Origin: a virus
Direction: 5' to 3' (one strand)
IMG/VR virus record: IMGVR_UViG_3300042882_000327
Span: 25,960-89,959 of that record
Length of the DNA: 64,000 nucleotides
Position 1 is the first letter of the stretch. Each line of letters opens with the position of its first letter. The position numbers and the translations under genes were made by a program. Below the pieces are notes generated by a model that ran no database searches, was not told the origin of the DNA, and saw nothing but the letters and a program-made list of their open reading frames with translations. Of the stretch, positions 15,669 to 59,656 are shown piece after piece.

Positions 15669-15788
15669 GATGTTTCTCCTAATTTATAGCGAGTTATTGT
15701 AAATAACTTCCCCGAAGGCGAAGTTTGACGAGAGGAATATTTTAATTGCCTATCCTCTCACTGCAATTCCCATCCCGATGGGTATAAC
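15669..15788 (-). promoter_or_regulatory. structured hsp20 5' leader with ROSE-like RNA thermometer
   Basis: Several hairpins including CUUCGG loop; last stem CUCGCU-AUAAAUU-AGGAG pairs the UCGCU motif with the SD. Confidence 0.6.
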
Positions 15789-15796
15789 TATTTATA
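15789..15796 (-). promoter_or_regulatory. T4-type late promoter
   Basis: TATAAATA upstream of hsp20 leader. Confidence 0.75.
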
Positions 15797-24554: not shown

Positions 24555-26333
24555 CTATCCTTTCATGATATTTTCAATTTGAACTTCATCAATGGTTTCG
24601 CGTTCCATTAATAGTTCAGCCATTTGTTCAACTTTATTCCAATTTTTCTTTAAAATTCTTTCGGCGGCTTTATAATTCTTGTTAATCAAAACTTGAATTT
24701 CTTTTTGTACCAAAGTAGTGATTTCTTCCATTCCAGATTTTAATTGCGAGGAATTAGTTAATCCATTCATTTCTACAAATTTAATTGGCGGGACTTTTTT
24801 ACTCATTCCCCATTCAGTTACCATTTTAGTAGCAAGCGAAGTTGCACGTTCAATATCATTCGAAGCACCAGTAGTAACACCATCAAATCCAGCATAAATT
24901 TCCTCTGCAATCCTACCTCCATATAAAGAAGCAATTTGACTTTCCAATTTTATTTTACTAACTGAAACCGAATCTCTTTCTGGTAGGAACATAGTAATAC
25001 CAAGTGCTCTGCCGCGAGGAATGATAGAAACTTTATAAATCGGATCATGTTCTTTAGAAAAATATCCTACAACAGCGTGTCCAGCTTCATGTATTGCTGT
25101 AAGTTTTCGTTCATCTTCTGACATTGTAAATGTCTTTCTTTCAACGCCCATCAAAATCTTATCCTTGGCTTTTTCAAAATTATGTTTCGAAACAACATCA
25201 GAATCTTCTCTAGAAGCGAAAATAGTAGCTTCATTTACAAGATTGGCTAATTCTGCCCCAGAGAAGCCAGATGTTCCTCTAGCAATACTATGCAAATCCA
25301 CATCCTCGGACATAGGAATATTCTTTGTATGAACTTCAAGAATTTGAGTTCTGCCATTCAAATCCGGTAATCCAACCGCGATTTGACGATCAAATCTTCC
25401 GGGTCTTAATAATGCCTTATCTAAGATATCCGCACGATTTGTTGCGGCAATAACAATAATCCTAGAATTAGTACCAAATCCATCCATTTCTACCAGCAAT
25501 GCATTTAATGTTTGGTCGCGTTCGTCATTTGAAACCATACCAGAACTTCTTGATTTACCGACAGCATCAATCTCGTCAATGAATAAAATAGCAGATTCAT
25601 TTTTCTTCAATTCGACAAACATATCACGAACTCTAGAAGACCCCACACCAACAAACATTTCAACAAAGTCGGAACCGGAACAATAATAAAACGGTACACC
25701 AGCTTCATGAGCAACCGCTTTGGATAGCAATGTTTTACCAGTTCCGGGATCTCCTGTCAAGAGAACACCTTTCGGGACTTTACCGCCAAGCTTATTAAAT
25801 TTTTCGGGATTTCTAAGAAAATCAATAACTTCTCGTAGTTCATCTTTTGCTTCATCACAACCAGCAACATCGGCAAAGGTAACTTCATTGTGTTCATCTT
25901 TTTCGAGAAGTTTAGCTTTGGAATTTCCAATAGATCCTAATCTACTACCAGCCTGTCTCCTAGCAAACCAAATCCATGCACAAATTAATAATACAATAGG
26001 AATTGAGTTAATTAAAATATCCATCCAAATACTTCTCTTTGGAGGATCTAAAACTACAACATCTACATTATGTGATAATAAATCATTAATTAATTGTGGA
26101 TCATTATCTGGAGTATTAACTACAAACTCTTCGCCAGTTTTTGCAATAGCATGTAGACTACTTCCTTGAATCCTAACCTTAAAGATTCCATCGTGTTTAA
26201 CAATATTCAAAAATCTAGTATAAGATGGTTGATATTGTTGCATTATTGGCTTAGTCATTCTATTATAAAATGTTACCGCAGCAAATACTACAGCAAATAG
26301 AATAACTGCCTTGATTAAAATTTGTTTATTCAT
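24555..26333 (-). CDS. ftsH: ATP-dependent zinc metalloprotease FtsH
   Basis: Two TM segments, GDPGTGKT, FVEMFVGVG pore loop, IDEID, SRH ALLRPGRFDR, HEAGH, GASND. Confidence 0.95.
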   Translation of the reverse strand: MNKQILIKAVILFAVVFAAVTFYNRMTKPIMQQYQPSYTRFLNIVKHDGIFKVRIQGSSLHAIAKTGEEFVVNTPDNDPQLINDLLSHNVDVVVLDPPKRSIWMDILINSIPIVLLICAWIWFARRQAGSRLGSIGNSKAKLLEKDEHNEVTFADVAGCDEAKDELREVIDFLRNPEKFNKLGGKVPKGVLLTGDPGTGKTLLSKAVAHEAGVPFYYCSGSDFVEMFVGVGSSRVRDMFVELKKNESAILFIDEIDAVGKSRSSGMVSNDERDQTLNALLVEMDGFGTNSRIIVIAATNRADILDKALLRPGRFDRQIAVGLPDLNGRTQILEVHTKNIPMSEDVDLHSIARGTSGFSGAELANLVNEATIFASREDSDVVSKHNFEKAKDKILMGVERKTFTMSEDERKLTAIHEAGHAVVGYFSKEHDPIYKVSIIPRGRALGITMFLPERDSVSVSKIKLESQIASLYGGRIAEEIYAGFDGVTTGASNDIERATSLATKMVTEWGMSKKVPPIKFVEMNGLTNSSQLKSGMEEITTLVQKEIQVLINKNYKAAERILKKNWNKVEQMAELLMERETIDEVQIENIMKG

Positions 26334-26872
26334 TATTCTTCCTCTAGGAAATTTTCTAGACCCTTTTTCTTCTTGGAGTTCTCTTTCTTCTCCTTAACAT
26401 TAGATTCATACTGCTCAATAAATTCATACAGATTATCATAAATTTGAATTTGGTTTATTGTGCCATCACCGAGTTCTAATAACTCTTCTTCATCAAGAAT
26501 CCCAAAATTCTCGGTGGCTTTATATTTCACATATTGTTGTTTCTTTTCTTTTGCTATTCTTCTTACAAAAGCATACCAACAAATTTGGGTAAAATATGCA
26601 AATGGATTTGTTGACTTTGCCGGATCAAAATTCTCAAAATACATCAAACAATTTTCTATAGCATCCGAAACCATTTCGTCCTTATACGTATAACAGCAAA
26701 AATTAGGACGTTTCGCCAGATTCATAGCAATCTTTAAGAAACATTCACCAATATAATTGGGAATCCGGGGTTTCTTTTGTCCCGCGCTTTTAGAAACGTC
26801 CAAAGCGGTTTTATATTCGACAAGAGCTTTTAAAAAATCGTCATTATTAATATATTGTGTTGTAGTTTTCAA
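26333..26872 (-). CDS. gp55: late-transcription sigma factor
   Basis: YINNDDFL, YIGECFLKIA, NPFAYFTQI, RRIAKEKKQ; TTG start with SD AGGAG. Confidence 0.95.
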   Translation of the reverse strand: MKTTTQYINNDDFLKALVEYKTALDVSKSAGQKKPRIPNYIGECFLKIAMNLAKRPNFCCYTYKDEMVSDAIENCLMYFENFDPAKSTNPFAYFTQICWYAFVRRIAKEKKQQYVKYKATENFGILDEEELLELGDGTINQIQIYDNLYEFIEQYESNVKEKKENSKKKKGLENFLEEE

Positions 26873-33468: not shown

Positions 33469-33960
33469 TTATATTGAATCAGAATCCAATTTTTTTAATT
33501 GTTTTTTATATAAATTTGGTTCGTGTTCCTTAACTTTTTCTTTTCTAATGTGAGATAAAGTAGATCTAACAAGCAATGATGGTTTGTATGGCTCGTTTTG
33601 TTCTTTGATAGAAGCATGTTTTCTCCATGCAGAATATACATCTCTTGTAGAAAATGGAGAAACATCTTTTCCATGTGGAGAAAGAACTATATCTTCATGT
33701 CCTGGTTTTTTATATACTTTATGACTTGTCTTATTTTGTCTAGCAAATCTATAACCAATACCAGTCAATATATTATGAGCTTGTGAAAATTTCATAATTG
33801 TTGGTCTATTACTCGTCAACATAGAAGAAGATATATCAATTCTTTTTTCTTGTAATTTTAAACATATTTTTTCTTTAATAATATCTTCTAATATGATATT
33901 AGCCCGATCTATATCATTTTCTACCAAACAATTTATTAAATTTTTTATTTTTTCGGACAT
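33469..33960 (-). CDS. prohead-core (gp67-like) anchor fused to HicA-like domain
   Basis: N-terminal helix ending LQEKRIDISSSM resembles 35318-36217 N-terminus; residues ~56-110 match HicA pattern. Confidence 0.55.
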   Translation of the reverse strand: MSEKIKNLINCLVENDIDRANIILEDIIKEKICLKLQEKRIDISSSMLTSNRPTIMKFSQAHNILTGIGYRFARQNKTSHKVYKKPGHEDIVLSPHGKDVSPFSTRDVYSAWRKHASIKEQNEPYKPSLLVRSTLSHIRKEKVKEHEPNLYKKQLKKLDSDSI

Positions 33961-36260: not shown

Positions 36261-37922
36261 TTACTGTTGTATATTATACGGATTATTATTTCTTGATGTC
36301 GATTGTTGTGGTTGTTGCGATTGTTCTTGCTCTGCTCCAGCATCTATTTGTTGATCTGGTTGTGGCATTAACTTATTAGTAAGTTCCGCAGCTTGCGCCT
36401 GAAGAGTAATTTGCTTTTCTTGATCTTCGGATTGCTGTGTAAAGTCGGTGATTCTTTCTTCTGCAATTTCCTCGTCCATCAACTTCATTTCTTCTTCGTT
36501 CAAACGAAGAATATTTTCTCTAATCCATTTCTTAGAATAATATTTACCAACAAAAGGATCTACTGTAGCTAGAATATTTAACCTTTCGGTCATTAATTCG
36601 GATTCTTTCAATTCTACGAAATTATTATCAACCGTAAAATCGAAATAAATGTCTTGTTTAAATTGTTCCCATTCTTCTTCTGTGCAAATTCCTTTTAGAA
36701 CTAACTGCACTCTCATAGCTTGATAGAAAATATCAGAGAATTTCTTCCTTAGTTTATCAACAAATTTAGAGAATTTTAATTCATCTCTAGTAATTTCCAT
36801 TGAACGTCCAATGGATACTGCTTGACCCGGATCTAGTCTTGTAACAGGAACATTCAATGATTTATATAGTTTTTGCTGGAAATATTCCACCATTGCCATA
36901 TCATTGAAATTGTCTGTCGATTGAAGGGTGGTAATTTCCGTGCCTTTTCCCCCATCAGAACGACGAGGTAGCCAAAAATCTTCCAACATGGAAAGATGTC
37001 TTCTATCATCTCTAACTTCGCCGGTGTTCGCATCATATACCAATTTATTTTTATATTTGGTCATGATATCACGAACATATTGTTCGGCTTTTTGTTTAGG
37101 TAAATTACCAACATCAATATAGAACACTCTTCTTTGTGGTGCTCTAGAAATTTTGTAAATGACTGAAGCATCTTCAATCATTCGTAATTGGTTTAATGGT
37201 TTAATTGCTTTATGTAAATAACTCAATACCATCGATCTTCTAGGGTCCATTAATCCCGAAGTGACGTAAATTATTGAATCTGTTGCTATTTTTACTCCAA
37301 GAGTAGTTAGACTTTGTGTTACCTTGTCATTATAGACGTAGTATTCTTCCACTTTATCAATTAGATCGACACCAGTTTGCGGGTCTTTTACTTTTTTGAT
37401 TTGCCTAACTTTTTTAATTCTTCTTGGGTCGATATATCGTAATTCGAGAATTCCCTTTTGGGGATTATTAACATCAATAATAATTTGATAAAATAAACGT
37501 CCATCGACATAATATCTTCTGAATATATCAGAAGACATATTACTATAGTTTAGTAGTCTCTGGACGTTATCGAATTCGTCATAAATGGCTTTTTTGATTT
37601 TGTCTGATTGCTTTAAATCGTCTGTTACTAATTTAATGCTTTTACCATCGTCATCATTAACGATAGCTTCGTTAACAACATCTTCGATGGCAGCTTCAAT
37701 TTCGGGTTGCATACTCATCTCTCTATAACGAGTGATAAGTTCAATTTCGTTTTTAGCAACGCCTTCGACATCTATAGATGCAGAACCAAAGAATGCCGAA
37801 GAAGATATAGTAAGAGAACCATCATCGTCAGGTGGTTGGACAAAGGTTTTATTATCTACTTCCTCTTCGGATTTTCTTCGAATTTTAAATCCAAATAAAG
37901 AAAAACTATTTTTATCAGCCAT
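36261..37922 (-). CDS. gp20: portal protein
   Basis: YYVDGR, SYLHKAIKPLNQLRMIED, RAPQRRVFYIDVGNLP, EDFWLPRR, ITRDELKF. Confidence 0.97.
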   Translation of the reverse strand: MADKNSFSLFGFKIRRKSEEEVDNKTFVQPPDDDGSLTISSSAFFGSASIDVEGVAKNEIELITRYREMSMQPEIEAAIEDVVNEAIVNDDDGKSIKLVTDDLKQSDKIKKAIYDEFDNVQRLLNYSNMSSDIFRRYYVDGRLFYQIIIDVNNPQKGILELRYIDPRRIKKVRQIKKVKDPQTGVDLIDKVEEYYVYNDKVTQSLTTLGVKIATDSIIYVTSGLMDPRRSMVLSYLHKAIKPLNQLRMIEDASVIYKISRAPQRRVFYIDVGNLPKQKAEQYVRDIMTKYKNKLVYDANTGEVRDDRRHLSMLEDFWLPRRSDGGKGTEITTLQSTDNFNDMAMVEYFQQKLYKSLNVPVTRLDPGQAVSIGRSMEITRDELKFSKFVDKLRKKFSDIFYQAMRVQLVLKGICTEEEWEQFKQDIYFDFTVDNNFVELKESELMTERLNILATVDPFVGKYYSKKWIRENILRLNEEEMKLMDEEIAEERITDFTQQSEDQEKQITLQAQAAELTNKLMPQPDQQIDAGAEQEQSQQPQQSTSRNNNPYNIQQ

Positions 37923-37958: not shown

Positions 37959-38501
37959 TTAGATAAAATCAGTGGTTTCTATATGCTGCCACCAGTTCAT
38001 CGCAAAAGTAACAGAAAATTCTGCAATTCTGTCATTATCGCCCCAATCTACTGGAATAGCACCGATATCAACCGGAAAACACTTAATCATTTGATATTGT
38101 GCTTTGATAGAACCGTCTTTTCCATATTGAATAACTTTTCCATCCATTTGATAAACGGCTGGAGAAACATATGTAACACTTCTTACGTTTTGTACGTGTC
38201 TATTCAATTGATCAGACCATCTTTCTAAAAAAGCTCTTGGACCATCAAAAGTTAGATCATCTTCGTCTAATAGAACACTAATAGTCCAATCTCCAAAAAC
38301 TCTATTACCGGCGAATTTGGCTTGACGACCAAAATAAAATGCTGGAGCAACCCCGATGCTAGAAGCAGGAATTGCAGAAGCCTTTGCTCTAATAGGCATT
38401 TTTAGACCAGTTCCAACTTGGTCAAAGAATATTTCAAAAAGATTTGGTCTTAGACCATCTCTTTGCATTTCTGAAATGAAATTATTAATATTAAACGCCA
38501 T
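37959..38501 (-). CDS. gp19: tail tube protein
   Basis: RPNLFE, GRQAKFAGNRVFGDW, FPVDIG...EFSVTF. Confidence 0.93.
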   Translation of the reverse strand: MAFNINNFISEMQRDGLRPNLFEIFFDQVGTGLKMPIRAKASAIPASSIGVAPAFYFGRQAKFAGNRVFGDWTISVLLDEDDLTFDGPRAFLERWSDQLNRHVQNVRSVTYVSPAVYQMDGKVIQYGKDGSIKAQYQMIKCFPVDIGAIPVDWGDNDRIAEFSVTFAMNWWQHIETTDFI

Positions 38502-38533
38502 TGTTCATCTCCTTTAAAGATAGGTATATTATT

Positions 38534-38548
38534 TATTTAGTATTTATA
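38534..38548 (-). promoter_or_regulatory. tandem T4-type late promoter boxes
   Basis: TATAAATA overlapping ACTAAATA upstream of gp19. Confidence 0.75.
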
Positions 38549-38575
38549 AAAAATGCAAATTCAAGTTTTTTATAG

Positions 38576-38602
38576 AAAAAAAGGGAGCCGAAGCTCCCTT
38601 TT
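38576..38602 (-). terminator. intrinsic terminator after gp18
   Basis: GGGAGC-UUCG-GCUCCC then U-run. Confidence 0.9.
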
Positions 38603-38619
38603 ATGATCATATAATTATA

Positions 38620-40398
38620 TTAGAACTGTCCAATTACTGTGGAGAATTCTACGCCACTTCTTACGGCTACAAAATTTAGCTGAATAAAGTTAATTGATCT
38701 TGCTGGTTTGATGTAGATATCACCAACAAAAGCATTTCTGTCAATTACATCTGGGGTATTATTTGTTTCATCACAAATAACTTTGAAGTCAATAATACCA
38801 CGACGACCTTTAACAGTTCTTAGATATGGTTCAATCATAGCAACGAACTGTGCTCTGGTAAACGCATCATTGAATTCGAATAGGCTATATCTTGCAGATC
38901 TGGAGATAGCTTTTTCTAGAGTAATGAATAGTCTACGAACATTGATTCTATCAAATGCTGAAGGCTTTGCTTGCATGGTCTTGTCACCTAGTAGAACAAC
39001 ACCTTCGCCCTTCATGAAGATAACAGGATTAACACCATTTTTGTATAGTGCATCTCTTTCTGTCAGATTTGGCGACCAAGCTAATTTAACAACATTTTTA
39101 ATCTTGCCACGATTGAAACCGCCTGGAGAGAACCAAGGATCGGCAACAGAGTCAGTATAAGCACACAGACCAGCAATGTCAGCATTCAAAGGAACCCAAC
39201 GATAAACGTTGTTGTAACGATCATATTGATATTTCCAACCGGAGTCAGAAACCATATATGAACTGGATCTTGATAGAGTGTTTAGGAAGCTGTCATTATC
39301 TGTTACGATTCTTTCGACTTCTTGATTCGGTTTATTCACAACATCCGAGAATCTTGGAGAAACGAATAACATCAAATCCTTTCTACCAACAGTTGGAGAT
39401 TCGGATTCTGGTCCTAGAACAATTTCATCTAGAACATGTTGAGCAACTCCGACACTAGAAGAACCAACGAATGCAAGAGAAATTTCGTATCTATCCTTAT
39501 CTTTGAATCTATCCCAGTTTAATTCTAATGCTCCGTCAGAAGGAGTAGAACCATTAGCACCACCAGTTAAAGTAACAGTATAGTTTGATGGAGAGTAGAA
39601 TCCAGATCCCATAGTAAGATCCGAAGACAATTTGCCCCATGTTGTAGAAGTATTCGAAAAATCTACTGGGTCCATTGCATAGATATACTGAGAATTTTGT
39701 TTTAGATATTCTTTGTAATAAGAACTTCTACCATTAATATCAACAGCATCAAATGATTTTGATAGAAATGCAAACTTCTCAATAATTGTATTTGCTTTTC
39801 CGGTAAATCCACCAGCAGAGTCGATAACAACAATATGTAATTCGTCATTGGCAACGTAGTTACCAGTCTTTTCAATGATATATTGAGAAGTTCCTGGAGC
39901 ATTGTCGAAATAACGGGAATAATTCCAATCTGTAAAATCGGAATTTTTTGCACAAATGGAAACTGTTAAAGAATTTCCTAGTGTTCCTGGATATCTAGCA
40001 GCAAATGGACCAAAAGAATTTGTATTATTAGCGTAGAAGTACGTAGATTCGAATGTATCTTGGTTTTTGCATAGCAAAGTTCTGCTAACATTTGCAGTAG
40101 CATTGTTTGCGGTATTTGCGTCAACAGTTCTTACTACATACAATGCGTTGGTATAAGATAAGAAGTTCGCGCAAGAAAAGAAAGAAACAGCAGAAAAAGA
40201 ATTTTCTATTGTTGATACTGGTTTTCCAAAAACTTCTATTAATTGATTTTCGTCAGAAATCAATGAAGGATCGTCACATGGACCCCAGTTGAATTGTCCT
40301 ACATAAGCTCCAACGGAGGTTGCTACACTAGGTACGATAGTGGTTAAGTCAATTTCGTTGACAGCAATTCCAGGGCTTAGTTGATTAATTATGCTCAT
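38620..40398 (-). CDS. gp18: tail sheath protein
   Basis: SPGIAVNEIDLT, PWFSPGG, FDRINVRRLF, KPARSINFIQLNF. Confidence 0.97.
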   Translation of the reverse strand: MSIINQLSPGIAVNEIDLTTIVPSVATSVGAYVGQFNWGPCDDPSLISDENQLIEVFGKPVSTIENSFSAVSFFSCANFLSYTNALYVVRTVDANTANNATANVSRTLLCKNQDTFESTYFYANNTNSFGPFAARYPGTLGNSLTVSICAKNSDFTDWNYSRYFDNAPGTSQYIIEKTGNYVANDELHIVVIDSAGGFTGKANTIIEKFAFLSKSFDAVDINGRSSYYKEYLKQNSQYIYAMDPVDFSNTSTTWGKLSSDLTMGSGFYSPSNYTVTLTGGANGSTPSDGALELNWDRFKDKDRYEISLAFVGSSSVGVAQHVLDEIVLGPESESPTVGRKDLMLFVSPRFSDVVNKPNQEVERIVTDNDSFLNTLSRSSSYMVSDSGWKYQYDRYNNVYRWVPLNADIAGLCAYTDSVADPWFSPGGFNRGKIKNVVKLAWSPNLTERDALYKNGVNPVIFMKGEGVVLLGDKTMQAKPSAFDRINVRRLFITLEKAISRSARYSLFEFNDAFTRAQFVAMIEPYLRTVKGRRGIIDFKVICDETNNTPDVIDRNAFVGDIYIKPARSINFIQLNFVAVRSGVEFSTVIGQF

Positions 40399-40438
40399 AT
40401 ATAATCTCCTTTAATAAAAAATATGTTTTATTATAAAT

Positions 40439-40446
40439 TATTTAGT
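40439..40446 (-). promoter_or_regulatory. late promoter variant for gp18
   Basis: ACTAAATA. Confidence 0.6.
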
Positions 40447-40489
40447 AAATCACACTTTTTCACCAAAGATTAGTTGGAATTTTAAGACG

Positions 40490-40497
40490 TATAAATA
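40490..40497 (+). promoter_or_regulatory. T4-type late promoter on the plus strand
   Basis: Perfect TATAAATA directly ahead of the structured ORF-free region. Confidence 0.65.
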
Positions 40498-40499
40498 AA

Positions 40500-40810
40500 C
40501 ACAGACAATTGCTATAGATAGCACATCATCAAGCAACATATAAAGTTGTTCTTGCGCTGATGGTCAACCCAATAGTTCAAAGCTCACGGCGGATAATGGC
40601 TCTATACGACGATAACCATTAAAGAATTGGATGTAGTTTCAAGTGCTACCAATTTCTTACAGCTAGTTAAGACGAAGGTAAAAGGAGACAGCTAACCCCC
40701 CTTGTATACCTGTAATAAGGTTCTTCTACTTGAAATGCAAACCGAAATGGCTCCATACGATGACGTTTCAAAATTGCAACTTGCCCGTGTAGGGTAAGTT
40801 GCACCCAAAA
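40500..40810 (+). ncRNA. candidate structured non-coding RNA of unknown family
   Basis: Multiple hairpins, a 9-nt loop-distal pairing, duplicated 18-nt motif, G-U pairs favouring plus strand, no ORF. Confidence 0.6.
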
Positions 40811-40840
40811 TTCACCCTCGATGACTAAAGTTAGATTAAA

Positions 40841-42547
40841 TTAACCTCTAAAGAAATTATCAAAAAGTTCTTTATAGATATCATCATTTTTAGTACCCAG
40901 ATTAGCATTAACCCACAAAGTGCCATCTTCCTGATAGAAATCTAATTGCATTCCATTTGTTGGACCAATTACAGGTAACATTTCATCGTCATCAAATTCT
41001 TCAAAATGTTCTATTTGTAATTGTCTTTTAATATCATGTGATACAATTTCTTTAAATAATTTTTGTGAAGCTAACCAAGCAAATATTACTAAAGTCATTG
41101 CTATGTCATCATTACAACCTTCTTCTGCTCTGTATGTTGGACCATCTACTACAAATGTAGTTAGTTCAGAAATAGTTTCAAAATCATTAATGATTAGTTT
41201 ATCATTTTCTATTAATGTTTTTAATGATGAACATCCTACTCTTTTAACCAAAGGACTCATCTTCAATCCAGAGAATGTTTTACCGGATCTTAATGAAATT
41301 GTTTGAGCTTTTTTATTCCCCGACGATACCCTAAAAACATTTTCATATCCCAAATCTTCTTGTAATATGTCTGCTACTTGTGGATTATTATTGATTTCCA
41401 CCAAAACGTGTGCAGTGTTGTAATAATCCGCACATGCTTTGACAATAGCTGGTAATACCATAGGAGAAATATTATTGTTTCTATATACTGCTACTTGTTT
41501 ATATGGAATTGCTGAAATATCAAACACAGAAAATGCAGAATAGTCTAAATTCTTTCCTTCCGAGACATCTACAGTAATTGCATATAAATGATCTCCAGAT
41601 ATGGGTTTTCCTGTATAATCATCAATTGTTTCTTTTACAGGTTGCTCGTATATTGTCATATTGGAATATTCGCCAATAGGTTCTTTGTACGGAAGACAAG
41701 CTAATTTTTCTCCAGAGATTAATGTATTGGTTGAACCGAGGAACGAACATTCAATTTCTTGTGCGAATTGTCTTTCTGAAGTATTTCTTATAAATTCTTC
41801 TTTCCACTTCTCATCTCTTCCCGGAACTTGAGTCCAGTGAACGTCGATACATGAATAATCATTTTTTCCAGATTTTGCATCGGTAAAGATTTTATAGAAT
41901 AGATTCATACCATTAGGAGTACTAATGATAGTGATCTTTGTTTTTTCGCCGGAAGAAATAACTGGATATACCGATGTAAAGAATTCTTCGGCTAGATTAT
42001 TATGAACGTGGGCGAATTCGTCAAGTATGACATGGGTATAACTTCCGCCTCGCACTGCTGATGAAGATGTTGCGGCGGCGGTTACTTTCGATCCGTTTTC
42101 TAATTCAATATTACCTTTATTCCACACTACTACCCCTTGTTGCAAGAACATGGGCAGATTTTCGTATGATCTTTGATACCTATCAAGAAGATCCCTAGCC
42201 AATGACCCTTTATTAGCAAGGATAACAATATTTTGTGTATCTTTAAATAGAGATGACCATAAAACATAACCTATAGTAGTTTGACTTTTACCAGATTGGC
42301 GACCAATTCTGCCTACAACGCGACGATTATCGTAAATAGTCTTGATCATCTCTCTTTGGAAATCATATAACTTGAAAGGGATCACACCCCTATCAACGTG
42401 AATGATTTTCATGTAATTTTCTATAAAATATATCGGATCTTGGGAACATTTTAAATATTCCTCTAGTTGCTCCTGAGTATATTCTAATTGAACATTACAT
42501 CTTTTTAAGAGTGGATTCGCTCGGTAGCTATCACTCAAATCCGTCAT
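40841..42547 (-). CDS. gp17: terminase large subunit
   Basis: GRQSGKS, ILDEFAH, ISTPNG, VDVSEG, NDDIAM. Confidence 0.97.
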   Translation of the reverse strand: MTDLSDSYRANPLLKRCNVQLEYTQEQLEEYLKCSQDPIYFIENYMKIIHVDRGVIPFKLYDFQREMIKTIYDNRRVVGRIGRQSGKSQTTIGYVLWSSLFKDTQNIVILANKGSLARDLLDRYQRSYENLPMFLQQGVVVWNKGNIELENGSKVTAAATSSSAVRGGSYTHVILDEFAHVHNNLAEEFFTSVYPVISSGEKTKITIISTPNGMNLFYKIFTDAKSGKNDYSCIDVHWTQVPGRDEKWKEEFIRNTSERQFAQEIECSFLGSTNTLISGEKLACLPYKEPIGEYSNMTIYEQPVKETIDDYTGKPISGDHLYAITVDVSEGKNLDYSAFSVFDISAIPYKQVAVYRNNNISPMVLPAIVKACADYYNTAHVLVEINNNPQVADILQEDLGYENVFRVSSGNKKAQTISLRSGKTFSGLKMSPLVKRVGCSSLKTLIENDKLIINDFETISELTTFVVDGPTYRAEEGCNDDIAMTLVIFAWLASQKLFKEIVSHDIKRQLQIEHFEEFDDDEMLPVIGPTNGMQLDFYQEDGTLWVNANLGTKNDDIYKELFDNFFRG

Positions 42548-42548
42548 A

Positions 42549-42995
42549 TTAATTTATCTCTTTAATATTATCTTCGTTCATTTGTTTTACTAGTTTCGAT
42601 AGCTCCGAAGTAGAACCGACAAATAGTGCATTCTTGATTGTTGTTTGACCATCAGAAGAACCTTTTTGTTTGTAGTTTGATATTTCTCTCACTTTTTTGT
42701 GGAGATCAATCATTCTTTCGTTTGCTTCGATGGTATTTTTTAATAGCCCAGCAGCAACTTCAAAATCTCGTCCTTTTTCCGATTCTCTTGCTATAGCTAG
42801 AATATCATCAATTGCATCTTTACTTTTTTCTATCAATTCATGCATATTTTCTCTAGCAATTTCATAATCTTTTTTCAGATCTAATTCTAGAGTTTCGTGC
42901 GGAATTGAATCGTATGTTTTTTTGGGAAGATTAGACGGTTCTACAGGAGTTACATCGAAGAACTCTTCCATATTTTTTTCAAATTTACTTGTCAT
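42549..42995 (-). CDS. gp16: terminase small subunit
   Basis: DYEIAREN, RDFEVA, NALFVGSTSEL. Confidence 0.9.
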   Translation of the reverse strand: MTSKFEKNMEEFFDVTPVEPSNLPKKTYDSIPHETLELDLKKDYEIARENMHELIEKSKDAIDDILAIARESEKGRDFEVAAGLLKNTIEANERMIDLHKKVREISNYKQKGSSDGQTTIKNALFVGSTSELSKLVKQMNEDNIKEIN

Positions 42996-59597: not shown

Positions 59598-59614
59598 TAT
59601 ATACTCCTAAATAT

Positions 59615-59647
59615 AAAAAAGCGTAGAGAATAAGATCCTCTACGCTT
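59615..59647 (-). terminator. intrinsic terminator
   Basis: AAGCGUAGAG/CUCUACGCUU stem followed by U-run. Confidence 0.75.
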
Positions 59648-59648
59648 G

Positions 59649-59656
59649 TATTTATA
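59649..59656 (-). promoter_or_regulatory. T4-type late promoter abutting terminator
   Basis: TATAAATA. Confidence 0.7.

What the first reader, a model, noticed from the sequence alone, without database searches (positions are those of the whole stretch)
40490..40830. Large pseudoknotted ncRNA candidate with its own late promoter, antisense between terminase and sheath genes
Seen: the largest ORF-free gap in the window, more GC-rich than other spacers, starting right after a perfect plus-strand TATAAATA. Helices found by eye: UGCUA/UAGCA (~40510-40523); CAUCA..CAAG..CAAC/GUUG..CUUG..UGAUG (40524-40562); AAGAAUUG..GUAG/CUAC-CAAUUUCUU (40622-40658) whose loop UUUCAAGUG (40637-40645) is complementary to UACUUGAAA (40727-40735), a pseudoknot; UUACA/UGUAA and GGUA..AAGG/CCUU..UACC (40657-40715); a 12-bp terminal hairpin (40775-40803). 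G-U pairs work only on the plus strand. It does not look like tRNA, tmRNA, RNase P or an intron to me. Inference: a late-expressed structural or regulatory RNA, possibly tied to packaging (pRNA analogue), a protein sponge or an antitoxin mimic.
Basis: partly seen in the sequence, partly recalled or inferred. Interest (0 to 1): 0.85.

Follow-up and report, generated by a model that had tools for sequence, protein, structure and literature searches.

The report
Conserved noncoding island beside phage terminase
A freshwater T4-like phage carries a roughly 335-base insert with no gene between its terminase and tail-sheath genes that is kept almost letter-perfect in a diverged relative and probably makes a folded RNA of unknown job from its own late promoter.

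Summary
Positions 40399-40840 are the largest internal ORF-free gap. No Rfam, tRNA or tmRNA match was found.

The insert is lineage-specific. It is absent from all 71 relatives with a short spacer, from L132 (72% TerL identity) and from 5 long related records. Only one record, L082, has it.

Against L082, 4-fold sites in the flanking genes differ by 46%. Yet 40585-40756 has 0 substitutions in 172 nt. The spacers on either side (40450-40489 and 40825-40840) differ by about 40%. The constrained block therefore runs from the TATAAATA to 40824.

Hairpin 40524-40562 took 10 substitutions: 3 compensatory pairs, 4 unpaired and 0 disruptive (simulated p about 1e-3). Two indels not divisible by three, and no conserved ORF, rule out coding. 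The 3' domain folds far better on the plus strand (z -4.8 against -1.5).

Best reading (0.45): a moron-like, late-promoter-driven structured RNA of about 320 nt with two look-alike hairpin loops. Its function is unknown. The pseudoknot and the 40657-40715 helices are not above chance. Expression and strand are untested. Only 2.5 sequences exist.

The parts
40439..40446 (-). Context: probable late promoter of the sheath gene (ACTAAATA on the minus strand), 40 nt upstream of the ATG at 40398. It marks the sheath-side limit of the insert.
   Evidence: Sequence. The same ACTAAATA stands at the same place in L132, and NNTAAATA variants stand there in L002, L004, L138 and L141. The stretch 40399-40449 is nearly identical in L082.
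40450..40489 (.). Unconstrained spacer between the two divergent promoters.
   Evidence: 17 substitutions plus a 2-nt indel in 40 nt against L082, about 42%. That is close to the 46% seen at 4-fold sites.
40490..40497 (+). Perfect T4-type late-promoter motif TATAAATA. The predicted start is near 40503.
   Evidence: TATAAATAAA (40490-40499) is unchanged in L082, although the 40 nt before it are about 42% diverged and a 6-nt indel follows it. The motif spans -13 to -6 in T4 (PMC1524935, passage read). A gp55-like sigma is encoded at 26333-26872.
40490..40824 (+). The whole constrained block: promoter plus an RNA candidate of about 320 nt.
   Evidence: Identity to L082 is 95-97% over 40564-40811 in 100-nt windows, against 81% over the whole 9.2-kb alignment. 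It holds the longest identical run of that alignment, 89 nt at 40585-40673. There are 0 substitutions in 40585-40756.
40510..40523 (+). Hairpin P1 (5 bp, loop UAGA).
   Evidence: The pairs hold in both sequences but never vary. With P2 it folds at z -1.84 on plus and -1.08 on minus.
40524..40562 (+). Hairpin P2 (13 bp in three segments, with bulges). This is the only helix with covariation.
   Evidence: It has 10 substitutions against L082. Three are compensatory pairs (40526/60 U-A to A-U, 40535/47 A-U to G-C, 40537/45 C-G to U-A), 4 lie in the loop or a bulge, and 0 are disruptive. In simulation, 10 random substitutions keep all 13 pairs in 8.7e-4 of trials, and do so with 3 or more double changes in 7.5e-5.
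40594..40621 (+). Hairpin HA: a 6-bp stem and a 16-nt loop that carries copy 1 of the motif AAUGGCUCYAUACGAYGA.
   Evidence: Direct repeat D1. The pairs are invariant. The motif occurs nowhere else in the window with up to 3 mismatches beyond chance.
40622..40658 (+). Hairpin H3 (12 bp with bulges). Its 9-nt loop is UUUCAAGUG at 40637-40645.
   Evidence: Pairable and invariant. HA plus H3 fold at z -1.24 on plus and -1.09 on minus.
40677..40710 (+). Weak helix GGUA..AAGG / CCUU..UACC.
   Evidence: It is pairable but not more stable than shuffles, z +0.33. L082's 1-nt deletion removes one of its pairs. The minus strand forms a different, longer helix here.
40727..40735 (+). Stretch complementary to the H3 loop, the proposed pseudoknot partner.
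   Evidence: It gives 9 pairs including 1 G-U, all invariant. The same or better is found in 5.4% of shuffles, so it is unproven.
40744..40769 (+). Hairpin HB: a 6-bp stem and a 14-nt loop that carries copy 2 of the motif.
   Evidence: Two one-sided changes in L082 keep the pairing only on the plus strand: U-G to U-A at 40748/65 and G-C to G-U at 40744/69. A contig of run X20 carries the same two changes.
40775..40803 (+). 12-bp terminal hairpin with one G-U pair, which would be an A-C mismatch on the minus strand.
   Evidence: Inverted repeat I2. With HB it folds at -24.8 kcal/mol, z -4.83 on plus, against -18.3 kcal/mol, z -1.45 on minus. No U-run follows it on the plus strand, and the minus-strand U-run is lost in L082.
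40804..40824 (+). Conserved 3' tail. It ends in a third CGAUGA.
   Evidence: It has 1 substitution (40814) against L082. Conservation stops at 40824.
40825..40840 (.). Unconstrained spacer before the terminase stop codon at 40841-40843.
   Evidence: 6 substitutions plus a 3-nt indel in 16 nt against L082.

Best explanation
The block 40490-40824 is an accessory, moron-like transcription unit without an ORF. It was inserted between the terminase stop codon and the sheath gene's own late promoter in one narrow lineage of freshwater T4-like phages. It points the opposite way to all 74 ORFs of 100 aa or more that I take as genes in the window.

Inferred mechanism:
1. Late in infection the phage's gp55-type sigma starts transcription at the plus-strand TATAAATA, near 40503.
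2. The RNA of about 320 nt folds into two 5' hairpins (P1, P2) and a core. The core holds two look-alike hairpins (HA, HB) that present the same loop motif GCUCYAUACGAYGA, and it ends in a stable 12-bp hairpin.
3. The RNA acts in trans through sequence-specific contacts, most likely by binding two copies of a protein or a dimer at the twin loops, as a scaffold or decoy.
4. Because close relatives build the same virion without it, its role is more likely in host interaction or regulation than in assembly.

Shown: the constraint, the lack of coding, the lineage-specific insertion and one covarying hairpin.
Inferred: the strand, the promoter use, the core fold and the mode of action.
For: 1. Constraint. 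Against L082, 4-fold sites of sheath, terL and tube differ at 213 of 463 (46%). In contrast, 40585-40756 has 0 substitutions in 172 nt, with a binomial p of 1.5e-15 even at the 18% average rate. 40585-40824 has 6 substitutions in 240 nt. It is the best-conserved 250 nt of a 9.2-kb alignment.

2. Edges. The spacers on both sides differ by about 40%. The constrained block therefore starts exactly at the plus-strand TATAAATAAA.

3. Structure. P2 has 3 compensatory pairs and 0 disruptive changes among 10 substitutions. HB has 2 wobble-compatible changes.

4. Strand. The segment 40740-40806 folds at z -4.83 on plus and -1.45 on minus. The HB changes and the 12-bp hairpin would be A-C mismatches on minus.

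5. Late promoters are used in this phage. Five of the 8 minus-strand TATAAATA sites are followed within about 25-52 nt by GGAG and an ATG. A late sigma is encoded (phrog_234, E 1.1e-59).

6. Noncoding. L082 has indels of +2 and -1 nt inside the core. The 45-aa minus-strand ORF becomes 67 aa in L082. The 5 changes in the small plus-strand ORF at 40736-40798 are all non-synonymous by my hand translation of both sequences, which no call made. None of the 10 stop-free stretches of 25 aa or more hits Pfam or PHROGs below E 0.04.

7. Accessory. The element is absent from 71 of 72 relatives that have both genes, and the 72nd has a homing-endonuclease gene there. It is also absent from L132 and from 5 long related records, 3 of them at least 94% complete, by BLAST and by covariance model. 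The model's positive control gave 1 hit in the phage's own genome.
Against: - There are no expression data. No RNA holder is on record.
- A plus-strand unit would be the only one in 64 kb, where all 74 ORFs of 100 aa or more that look like genes lie on the minus strand.
- TATAAATA is not enriched in the window (11 found against 13.7 expected), and 2 other plus-strand copies lie inside genes.
- No terminator follows on the plus strand.
- The whole-region fold is not significantly stable on either strand. The two-sequence consensus folds have equal energy on both strands, -71.45 against -71.05.
- The core has no substitutions, so its fold has no covariation support at all. With 2 sequences the shuffle control has no power (62 of 500).
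- Near-identity of the core could come from a recent exchange between the two lineages instead of selection.
- The twin-loop protein-binding idea rests only on the repeat.
Confidence: 0.45

Rival explanations
1. It is a cis-acting element of the minus-strand late mRNA. The block is a structured 3' UTR of terL, or an upstream leader of read-through transcripts into the sheath gene. It would set processing, stability or partial termination between a low-copy enzyme gene and a very highly expressed structural gene.
For: - The minus strand is certainly transcribed if terL transcripts read through, and no terminator follows terL.
- P1 and P2 are all Watson-Crick pairs and form equally on minus.
- At 40655-40718 the minus strand makes the longer helix, -13.5 against -8.2 kcal/mol.
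- The last 14 codons of terL (40845-40886) are identical to L082 without a single synonymous change. This hints at a constraint on that transcript.
- Other translation-start regions in this alignment are also ultra-conserved: 38425-38524 at 97% and 40322-40421 at 96%.
Against: - The 3' domain folds much worse on minus (z -1.45 against -4.83).
- The HB substitutions and the 12-bp hairpin give A-C mismatches on minus.
- The U-run after the 12-bp hairpin on minus is lost in L082.
- The sheath gene has its own promoter downstream of the element, so the element is not in its primary leader.
- On this reading the conserved TATAAATAAA at the edge has no role.
- Relatives manage the same gene pair with a spacer of about 70 nt.
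Confidence: 0.2
2. It is a DNA-level or selfish element. The block would be a noncoding insert, for example the footprint of a mobile cassette or a protein-binding DNA site with two 18-bp direct repeats 151 bp apart. It was recently exchanged between the two lineages, so its near-identity reflects recent transfer and not function as an RNA.
For: - The terL-sheath spacer is an insertion site. One of 72 relatives (L040) carries a 210-aa ORF there that matches homing-endonuclease PHROGs (phrog_314, E 2.8e-07; phrog_655, E 1.3e-05).
- The element is confined to one narrow lineage.
- Zero substitutions in 172 nt is extreme even for structured RNAs.
- The direct repeats could be protein sites on DNA.
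Against: - The 5' part of the same insert (40500-40584) has diverged by 19%, with compensatory pairs. The insert is therefore old in both lineages and is read as a folded single strand.
- The identical block carries two indels and X20 shows a third variant, which does not fit a very recent copy.
- There are no terminal inverted repeats that hold in L082. The 19-nt inverted repeat I1 breaks in L082 on my reading of the alignment.
- No other copy exists in the genome, in IMG/VR, among phage records or in bacterial genomes.
- Relatives without it presumably package and replicate normally, so it is not a required pac or ori site.
Confidence: 0.2
3. It is a decayed gene, such as a former homing endonuclease or another small gene with its own late promoter, or it encodes very small proteins.
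For: - Its GC content is like that of coding DNA (0.41).
- A homing-endonuclease gene occupies this site in L040.
- Small ORFs exist, including a 20-codon plus-strand ORF (40736-40798) that stays open in L082.
Against: - A pseudogene should drift at about the neutral 46%, not stay 97% identical.
- No six-frame similarity to any of the 80 related loci held at that point, including L040 (best E 1.1).
- None of the 10 open stretches hits a family.
- The indels break the frames.
- All 5 changes in the 20-codon ORF alter the amino acid, by my hand translation.
- L082's 67-aa ORF has no relative among 5.8 billion proteins.
Confidence: 0.05

Closest known systems
Phage 'morons': independent transcription units inserted between genes of a late operon (concept recalled from the lambdoid-phage literature; not read here)
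   Same: It is an extra unit wedged between two conserved late genes. It is absent from relatives that keep the flanking genes adjacent, and it appears to carry its own promoter.
   Different: Classical morons encode a protein and usually have a terminator. This unit has no ORF and no recognisable terminator, and it points against the operon.
cabRNA of staphylococcal phages (PMC10686824; abstract and passages read)
   Same: It is a structured phage RNA of a few hundred nucleotides made at the terminase locus. Its hairpins, not a coded protein, are what matter.
   Different: cabRNA maps to about 400 nt starting within terS and running into terL, so it overlaps coding sequence on the sense strand. 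It is known as a trigger of host CBASS cyclases. The element here is intergenic and antisense, lies downstream of terL, and no partner is known. The paper says that cabRNAs of different phages share no sequence homology, so homology cannot be tested.
phi29 packaging RNA (pRNA) (properties recalled; not read here)
   Same: It is a structured phage RNA next to the packaging genes. It has a hairpin loop complementary to another stretch of the same RNA, which could in principle pair between molecules.
   Different: There is no match to any Rfam model. The phage has a T4-type terminase and portal, which work without RNA. Relatives with the same packaging genes lack the element. The loop complementarity is within chance.
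Small stable RNAs of T4 of unknown function, in the tRNA cluster (recalled; not read here)
   Same: These are noncoding RNAs of T4-type phages that have no assigned role.
   Different: They differ in location and size.

Membership tests
Any Rfam 15 family (including pRNA, 6S, tmRNA, RNase P, SRP, large phage-associated RNAs and ribozymes, as far as they are in the library) | A covariance-model match at or near the family's gathering score | tested here: not met
   0 matches in the whole window at gathering score; in 40300-40950 at E up to 10 there were 4 hits, all with E of 0.62 or more and 12-21 bits, against gathering scores of 35-186.
tRNA / tmRNA | A cloverleaf or tmRNA fold detected by ARAGORN | tested here: not met
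   0 in the window; 0 at -ps80, and only 2 low-score calls at -ps70.
T4-type late transcription unit | TATAAATA at -13 to -6 of the start | tested here: met
   A perfect motif stands at 40490-40497 on plus and is conserved in L082. The definition comes from PMC1524935.
T4-type late transcription unit | The phage encodes a gp55-type late sigma and uses such promoters | tested here: met
   26333-26872 matches phrog_234, late sigma factor, E 1.1e-59. Five of the 8 minus-strand TATAAATA sites precede GGAG plus an ATG.
T4-type late transcription unit | A transcript that starts about 6 nt after the motif | not testable with these tools
   No RNA holder was listed. Contigs cannot show starts or strand.
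phi29-type pRNA | It belongs to a phage with a phi29-type packaging motor and is needed for packaging | tested here: not met
   The terminase is T4-type (Terminase_6N/6C) and the portal is Portal_T4. Relatives with these genes lack the element.
phi29-type pRNA | Complementary loops for intermolecular pairing | tested here: inconclusive
   There is a 9-nt complementarity between 40637-45 and 40727-35. It is seen in 5.4% of shuffles and has no covariation.
Type III antitoxin RNA (ToxI-like) or a phage mimic of one | Tandem direct repeats of a short unit | tested here: not met
   no tandem repeat in 40300-40950. The only repeats are 2 copies of 18 nt, 151 nt apart.
Moron | An extra unit between two late genes that are adjacent in relatives | tested here: met
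   relatives have a spacer of about 55-90 nt. The window has 442 nt.
Moron | Its own promoter, a protein-coding gene and a terminator | tested here: not met
   The promoter motif is present. There is no conserved ORF and no terminator.
Free-standing homing endonuclease gene or its remnant | An ORF, or translated similarity to endonuclease families | tested here: not met
   no similarity. L040's ORF at the same site does match such families.

The most novel reading that the evidence does not exclude
T4-like phages can carry a noncoding 'RNA moron'. This would be a late-promoter-driven, antisense-oriented structured RNA of about 320 nt, under rRNA-like sequence constraint. It would act as a decoy or scaffold for a host or phage protein, for example against a host defence, or as an assembly or packaging cofactor acquired by one lineage. 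That would be a new class of phage RNA with no described family.
Probability: 0.18. Interest if true: 0.85.

Novelty: new variant of a known kind. Interest (0 to 1): 0.6.

Why it matters
T4-type phages are the textbook case of a virus whose late region is a one-way array of protein genes. A separately promoted structured RNA inside that array would be unexpected, especially one kept nearly letter-perfect while silent sites around it are half replaced. Few phage noncoding RNAs have a known role, and those that do (packaging RNA, defence triggers, antitoxin and CRISPR-repeat mimics) turned out to be mechanistically important.

The element is short and sharply bounded, and it is absent from close relatives. 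That makes it a clean object for a gain or loss test once a host or a surrogate system is available. If the near-identity instead reflects recent exchange, it marks a small noncoding segment that moves between lake phage lineages, which is also of interest for phage population genetics.

Tried and rejected
Known RNA families: Rfam at gathering score on the whole window, Rfam at E up to 10 on the gap and ARAGORN gave nothing usable.

Search for homologues (only L082 was found):
- blastn against 50,697 phage records gave no match.
- Four IMG/VR pattern scans from four parts of the element, and one from the terL end, each returned only L082.
- The 18-nt motif scan returned 34 loci. Thirty-three of them match only the motif itself, as the covariance model showed.
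- The one metagenome scan returned 9 loci.
- Two scans of bacterial and archaeal genomes returned 0, so no host origin was found at exact-word level.
- BLAST and model R1 on 5 long related records gave only chance hits or none. The best BLAST hit lies inside a 515-aa ORF.
- A protein search with L082's 67-aa ORF, meant to catch spurious gene calls over the element in other assemblies, found no candidate.

Sequencing runs: no RNA holder was listed.
- The three lake runs laid (X15, X17, X19) hold fragments identical to the window, so they add no variation.
- X20 is labelled RNA-Seq, but the tool rates it as probably DNA. It holds a 166-nt contig over 40681-40824 with 6 differences and no gap. 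Five of the differences are those of L082. I use it only as a partial third sequence variant, not as evidence of expression.
- X17 and X19 also hold an abundant relative with 512 nt where the window has 915 nt. That relative lacks the element.

Targets in trans: the element against the whole 89,959-nt record gave only word-level matches with E of 0.36 or more. A 21-of-24 match between the P1 region and the terS gene decays to 17 of 24 in L082 by my count of the printed rows, so I take it as chance.

Rejected features:
- Long-range inverted repeat I1 (40472-90 with 40763-81): rejected because most of its pairs break in L082, on my reading of the alignment.
- Intrinsic terminator roles for the 12-bp hairpin: rejected on both strands. 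There is no U-run on plus, and the minus-strand U-run is not kept in L082.

Literature: two full-text searches for structured RNAs in T4-like phages listed nothing on such an element. I saw the listings only. A claim that nothing is in print rests on those two searches alone.
Full report
WHAT IS THERE

The window is part of an IMG/VR record of a T4-like phage; it is G000 positions 25960-89959. Runs that hold the stretch are lake-water metagenomes. All 74 ORFs of 100 aa or more that look like genes lie on the minus strand. Around the finding the genes are:
- a T4-type small terminase at 42549-42995,
- a large terminase at 40841-42547,
- a tail sheath at 38620-40398,
- a 180-aa ORF at 37959-38501 with no Pfam match, which I take by its place to be the tail tube,
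- a T4-type portal at 36261-37922.

The 442 nt between terminase and sheath are the largest internal ORF-free gap. The block 40500-40826 has GC 0.41. Nine of the ten other listed internal spacers have 0.15-0.35 and one has 0.38. TATAAATA stands on the plus strand at 40490-40497.

TRANSCRIPTION SIGNALS NEARBY

The phage encodes a gp55-type late sigma factor. In T4 this factor reads TATAAATA at -13 to -6 (PMC1524935, passage read). Of the 8 minus-strand TATAAATA sites, 5 are followed within about 25-52 nt by GGAG and an ATG of a late gene.

The sheath gene has a variant, ACTAAATA, at 40446-40439. It stands at the same distance from its ribosome-binding site as in relatives, and L132 has the identical octamer. 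A strong intrinsic terminator follows the sheath gene at 38602-38579.

The element therefore lies between the terminase stop codon and the sheath's own promoter. Its TATAAATA points the other way. TATAAATA as a word is not enriched in the window (11 found, 13.7 expected), so the motif alone proves nothing.

COMPARISON WITH RELATIVES

Of 80 IMG/VR loci with a related terminase, 72 held both genes. The 8 without one of them were dropped from the count (L001, L018, L038, L056, L060, L061, L066, L078).
- In 71 of the 72, the distance from the end of the terminase match to the start of the sheath match is 86-142 nt. That corresponds to a spacer of roughly 55-90 nt.
- One, L040, has 716 nt. It holds a 210-aa ORF that matches homing-endonuclease PHROGs.
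- L132, the next-closest relative at 72% TerL identity, has a spacer of about 67 nt.
- BLAST and a covariance model of 40590-40806 find nothing in 5 long related records, 3 of them at least 94% complete. The model finds exactly one copy in the phage's own record and one in L082.

The block is thus an insertion of about 365 nt in one narrow lineage. The only other record with it is L082 (IMG/VR 3300044655_001033), found by every pattern scan. A 166-nt contig of run X20 gives a partial third variant.

CONSTRAINT

Window and L082 are 82-86% identical in sheath, terminase and tube DNA (89-93% in protein). They differ at 213 of 463 4-fold degenerate sites, which is 46%.

The pattern along the gap is as follows:

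| Stretch | Differences against L082 |
|---|---|
| 40450-40489 | 17 substitutions and an indel in 40 nt, about neutral |
| 40490-40499 (TATAAATAAA) | unchanged |
| 40500-40584 | 16 substitutions in 85 nt (19%) and a 6-nt indel |
| 40585-40756 | 0 substitutions in 172 nt, with indels of +2 and -1 nt |
| 40757-40824 | 6 substitutions |
| 40825-40840 | 6 substitutions and an indel in 16 nt, about neutral |

The probability of 0 changes in 172 nt is 1.5e-15 even at the 18% average rate. In 100-nt windows the core scores 95-97%. It holds the longest identical run (89 nt) of the 9.2-kb alignment. Only two other windows reach 96-97%, and both are translation-start regions of late genes.

The constrained block is sharply bounded. 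It begins at the plus-strand promoter motif.

STRUCTURE

Hairpin P2 (40524-40562) carries 10 of the substitutions. Three pairs changed on both sides and stayed paired, 4 changes lie in the loop or a bulge, and none breaks a pair. Ten random substitutions leave all 13 pairs intact in 8.7e-4 of simulations, and do so with 3 or more double changes in 7.5e-5.

Hairpin HB (40744-40769) has two one-sided changes that keep pairing through G-U. X20 carries the same two.

HA and HB are look-alikes. Each has a 6-bp stem whose 5' strand and loop carry AAUGGCUCYAUACGAYGA. The motif occurs nowhere else in the window beyond chance.

All other helices are invariant and therefore untested. By stability, 40740-40806 stands out (z -4.83). 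P1 plus P2 and HA plus H3 are marginal. 40655-40718 is no better than shuffles. The proposed pseudoknot is matched or bettered in 5.4% of shuffles. With two sequences the formal shuffle control has no power (62 of 500).

STRAND

For plus:
- The promoter motif sits at the edge of the constrained block.
- The 3' domain folds at z -4.83 on plus and -1.45 on minus.
- The HB changes and the G-U in the 12-bp hairpin become A-C mismatches on minus.

For minus:
- That strand is surely transcribed by read-through.
- It forms the longer helix at 40655-40718.
- Nothing else in 64 kb is read from plus.

Whole-region and consensus folds do not discriminate. I put plus at roughly two to one.

NOT CODING, NOT A REMNANT, NOT REPEATED

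- The indels break every frame across 40673-40707.
- The 45-aa minus-strand ORF becomes 67 aa in L082.
- By my hand translation, the 5 changes in the 20-codon plus-strand ORF all alter the amino acid.
- Six-frame translations match nothing in the 80 related loci held at that point.
- The 10 open stretches of 25 aa or more match no Pfam or PHROG family below E 0.04.
- L082's ORF has no relative among 5.8 billion proteins.
- There is no tandem repeat and no second copy in the record.
- Bacterial genomes gave no exact-word match.

MECHANISM

My best reading (0.45) is an ORF-less, moron-like unit. The late sigma starts an RNA of about 320 nt near 40503. The RNA folds and acts in trans, most likely by presenting the twin loops to two copies of a protein. 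Because relatives assemble the same virion without it, the role is accessory.

Rivals:
- a cis element of the minus-strand late mRNA (0.2),
- a DNA-level or selfish insert recently exchanged between lineages (0.2),
- a decayed or tiny gene (0.05).

The old, covarying 5' domain, the two indels and the X20 variant argue against very recent transfer, but they cannot exclude gene conversion of the core.

COMPARISON WITH KNOWN THINGS

- It works most like a moron in layout, but it lacks the ORF and terminator that define one.
- It resembles cabRNA (PMC10686824) in being a structured RNA at the terminase locus, but cabRNA is sense and overlaps coding sequence.
- It fails every testable pRNA feature.
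- It is not a member of any Rfam family.

LIMITS

- Only two full sequences and one partial sequence exist.
- No RNA data exist.
- Function is inferred from anatomy only.

Noticed in passing
window 15669-15796: This 128-nt spacer has an unusually high GC of 0.38. It starts right after a minus-strand TATAAATA (15796-15789) and contains at least two GC-rich hairpins on the minus strand. It may be a structured leader or a second small RNA.
   Followed up: no
window 59598-59656: A late promoter TATAAATA on the minus strand is followed at once by a GC-rich hairpin plus a U-run, and only then by the ribosome-binding site and ATG of the next gene. A terminator-like hairpin thus sits inside a leader.
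   Followed up: no
L040 5703-6335: A 210-aa ORF is inserted in the same terminase-sheath spacer in 1 of 72 relatives. It matches homing-endonuclease PHROGs (phrog_314, E 2.8e-07; phrog_655, E 1.3e-05) but no Pfam family.
   Followed up: partly
window 40845-40886: The last 14 codons of the terminase gene are identical to L082, with no synonymous change, although third positions differ by 35% across the gene. The stretch may be part of the neighbouring element's transcript or of an mRNA 3' structure.
   Followed up: no
window 38454-38555: The start of the 180-aa tube-position gene, its leader and its late promoter form a second ultra-conserved island against L082. It has identical runs of 69 and 32 nt separated by one difference.
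   Followed up: no
window 38579-38602: A strong intrinsic terminator on the minus strand (10-bp stem, UUCG loop, U-run) follows the sheath gene directly and precedes the next late promoter.
   Followed up: no
window 33469-33960: This 163-aa ORF gives a weak HicA_toxin Pfam match (E 4.1e-05, 24.1 bits, below the cut-off of 27) at residues 63-102. An earlier first-reader note had pointed this out.
   Followed up: partly
window 40202-41118, in runs X17 and X19: An abundant related phage (contig depths 17 and 53) has 512 nt where the window has 915 nt. It therefore lacks the element while living in the same kind of lake samples.
   Followed up: no
window 40509-40532 and 42788-42811: There is a 21-of-24 match between the P1 region and a stretch of the small-terminase gene. 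By my count of the printed rows it falls to 17 of 24 in L082, so I take it as chance.
   Followed up: yes
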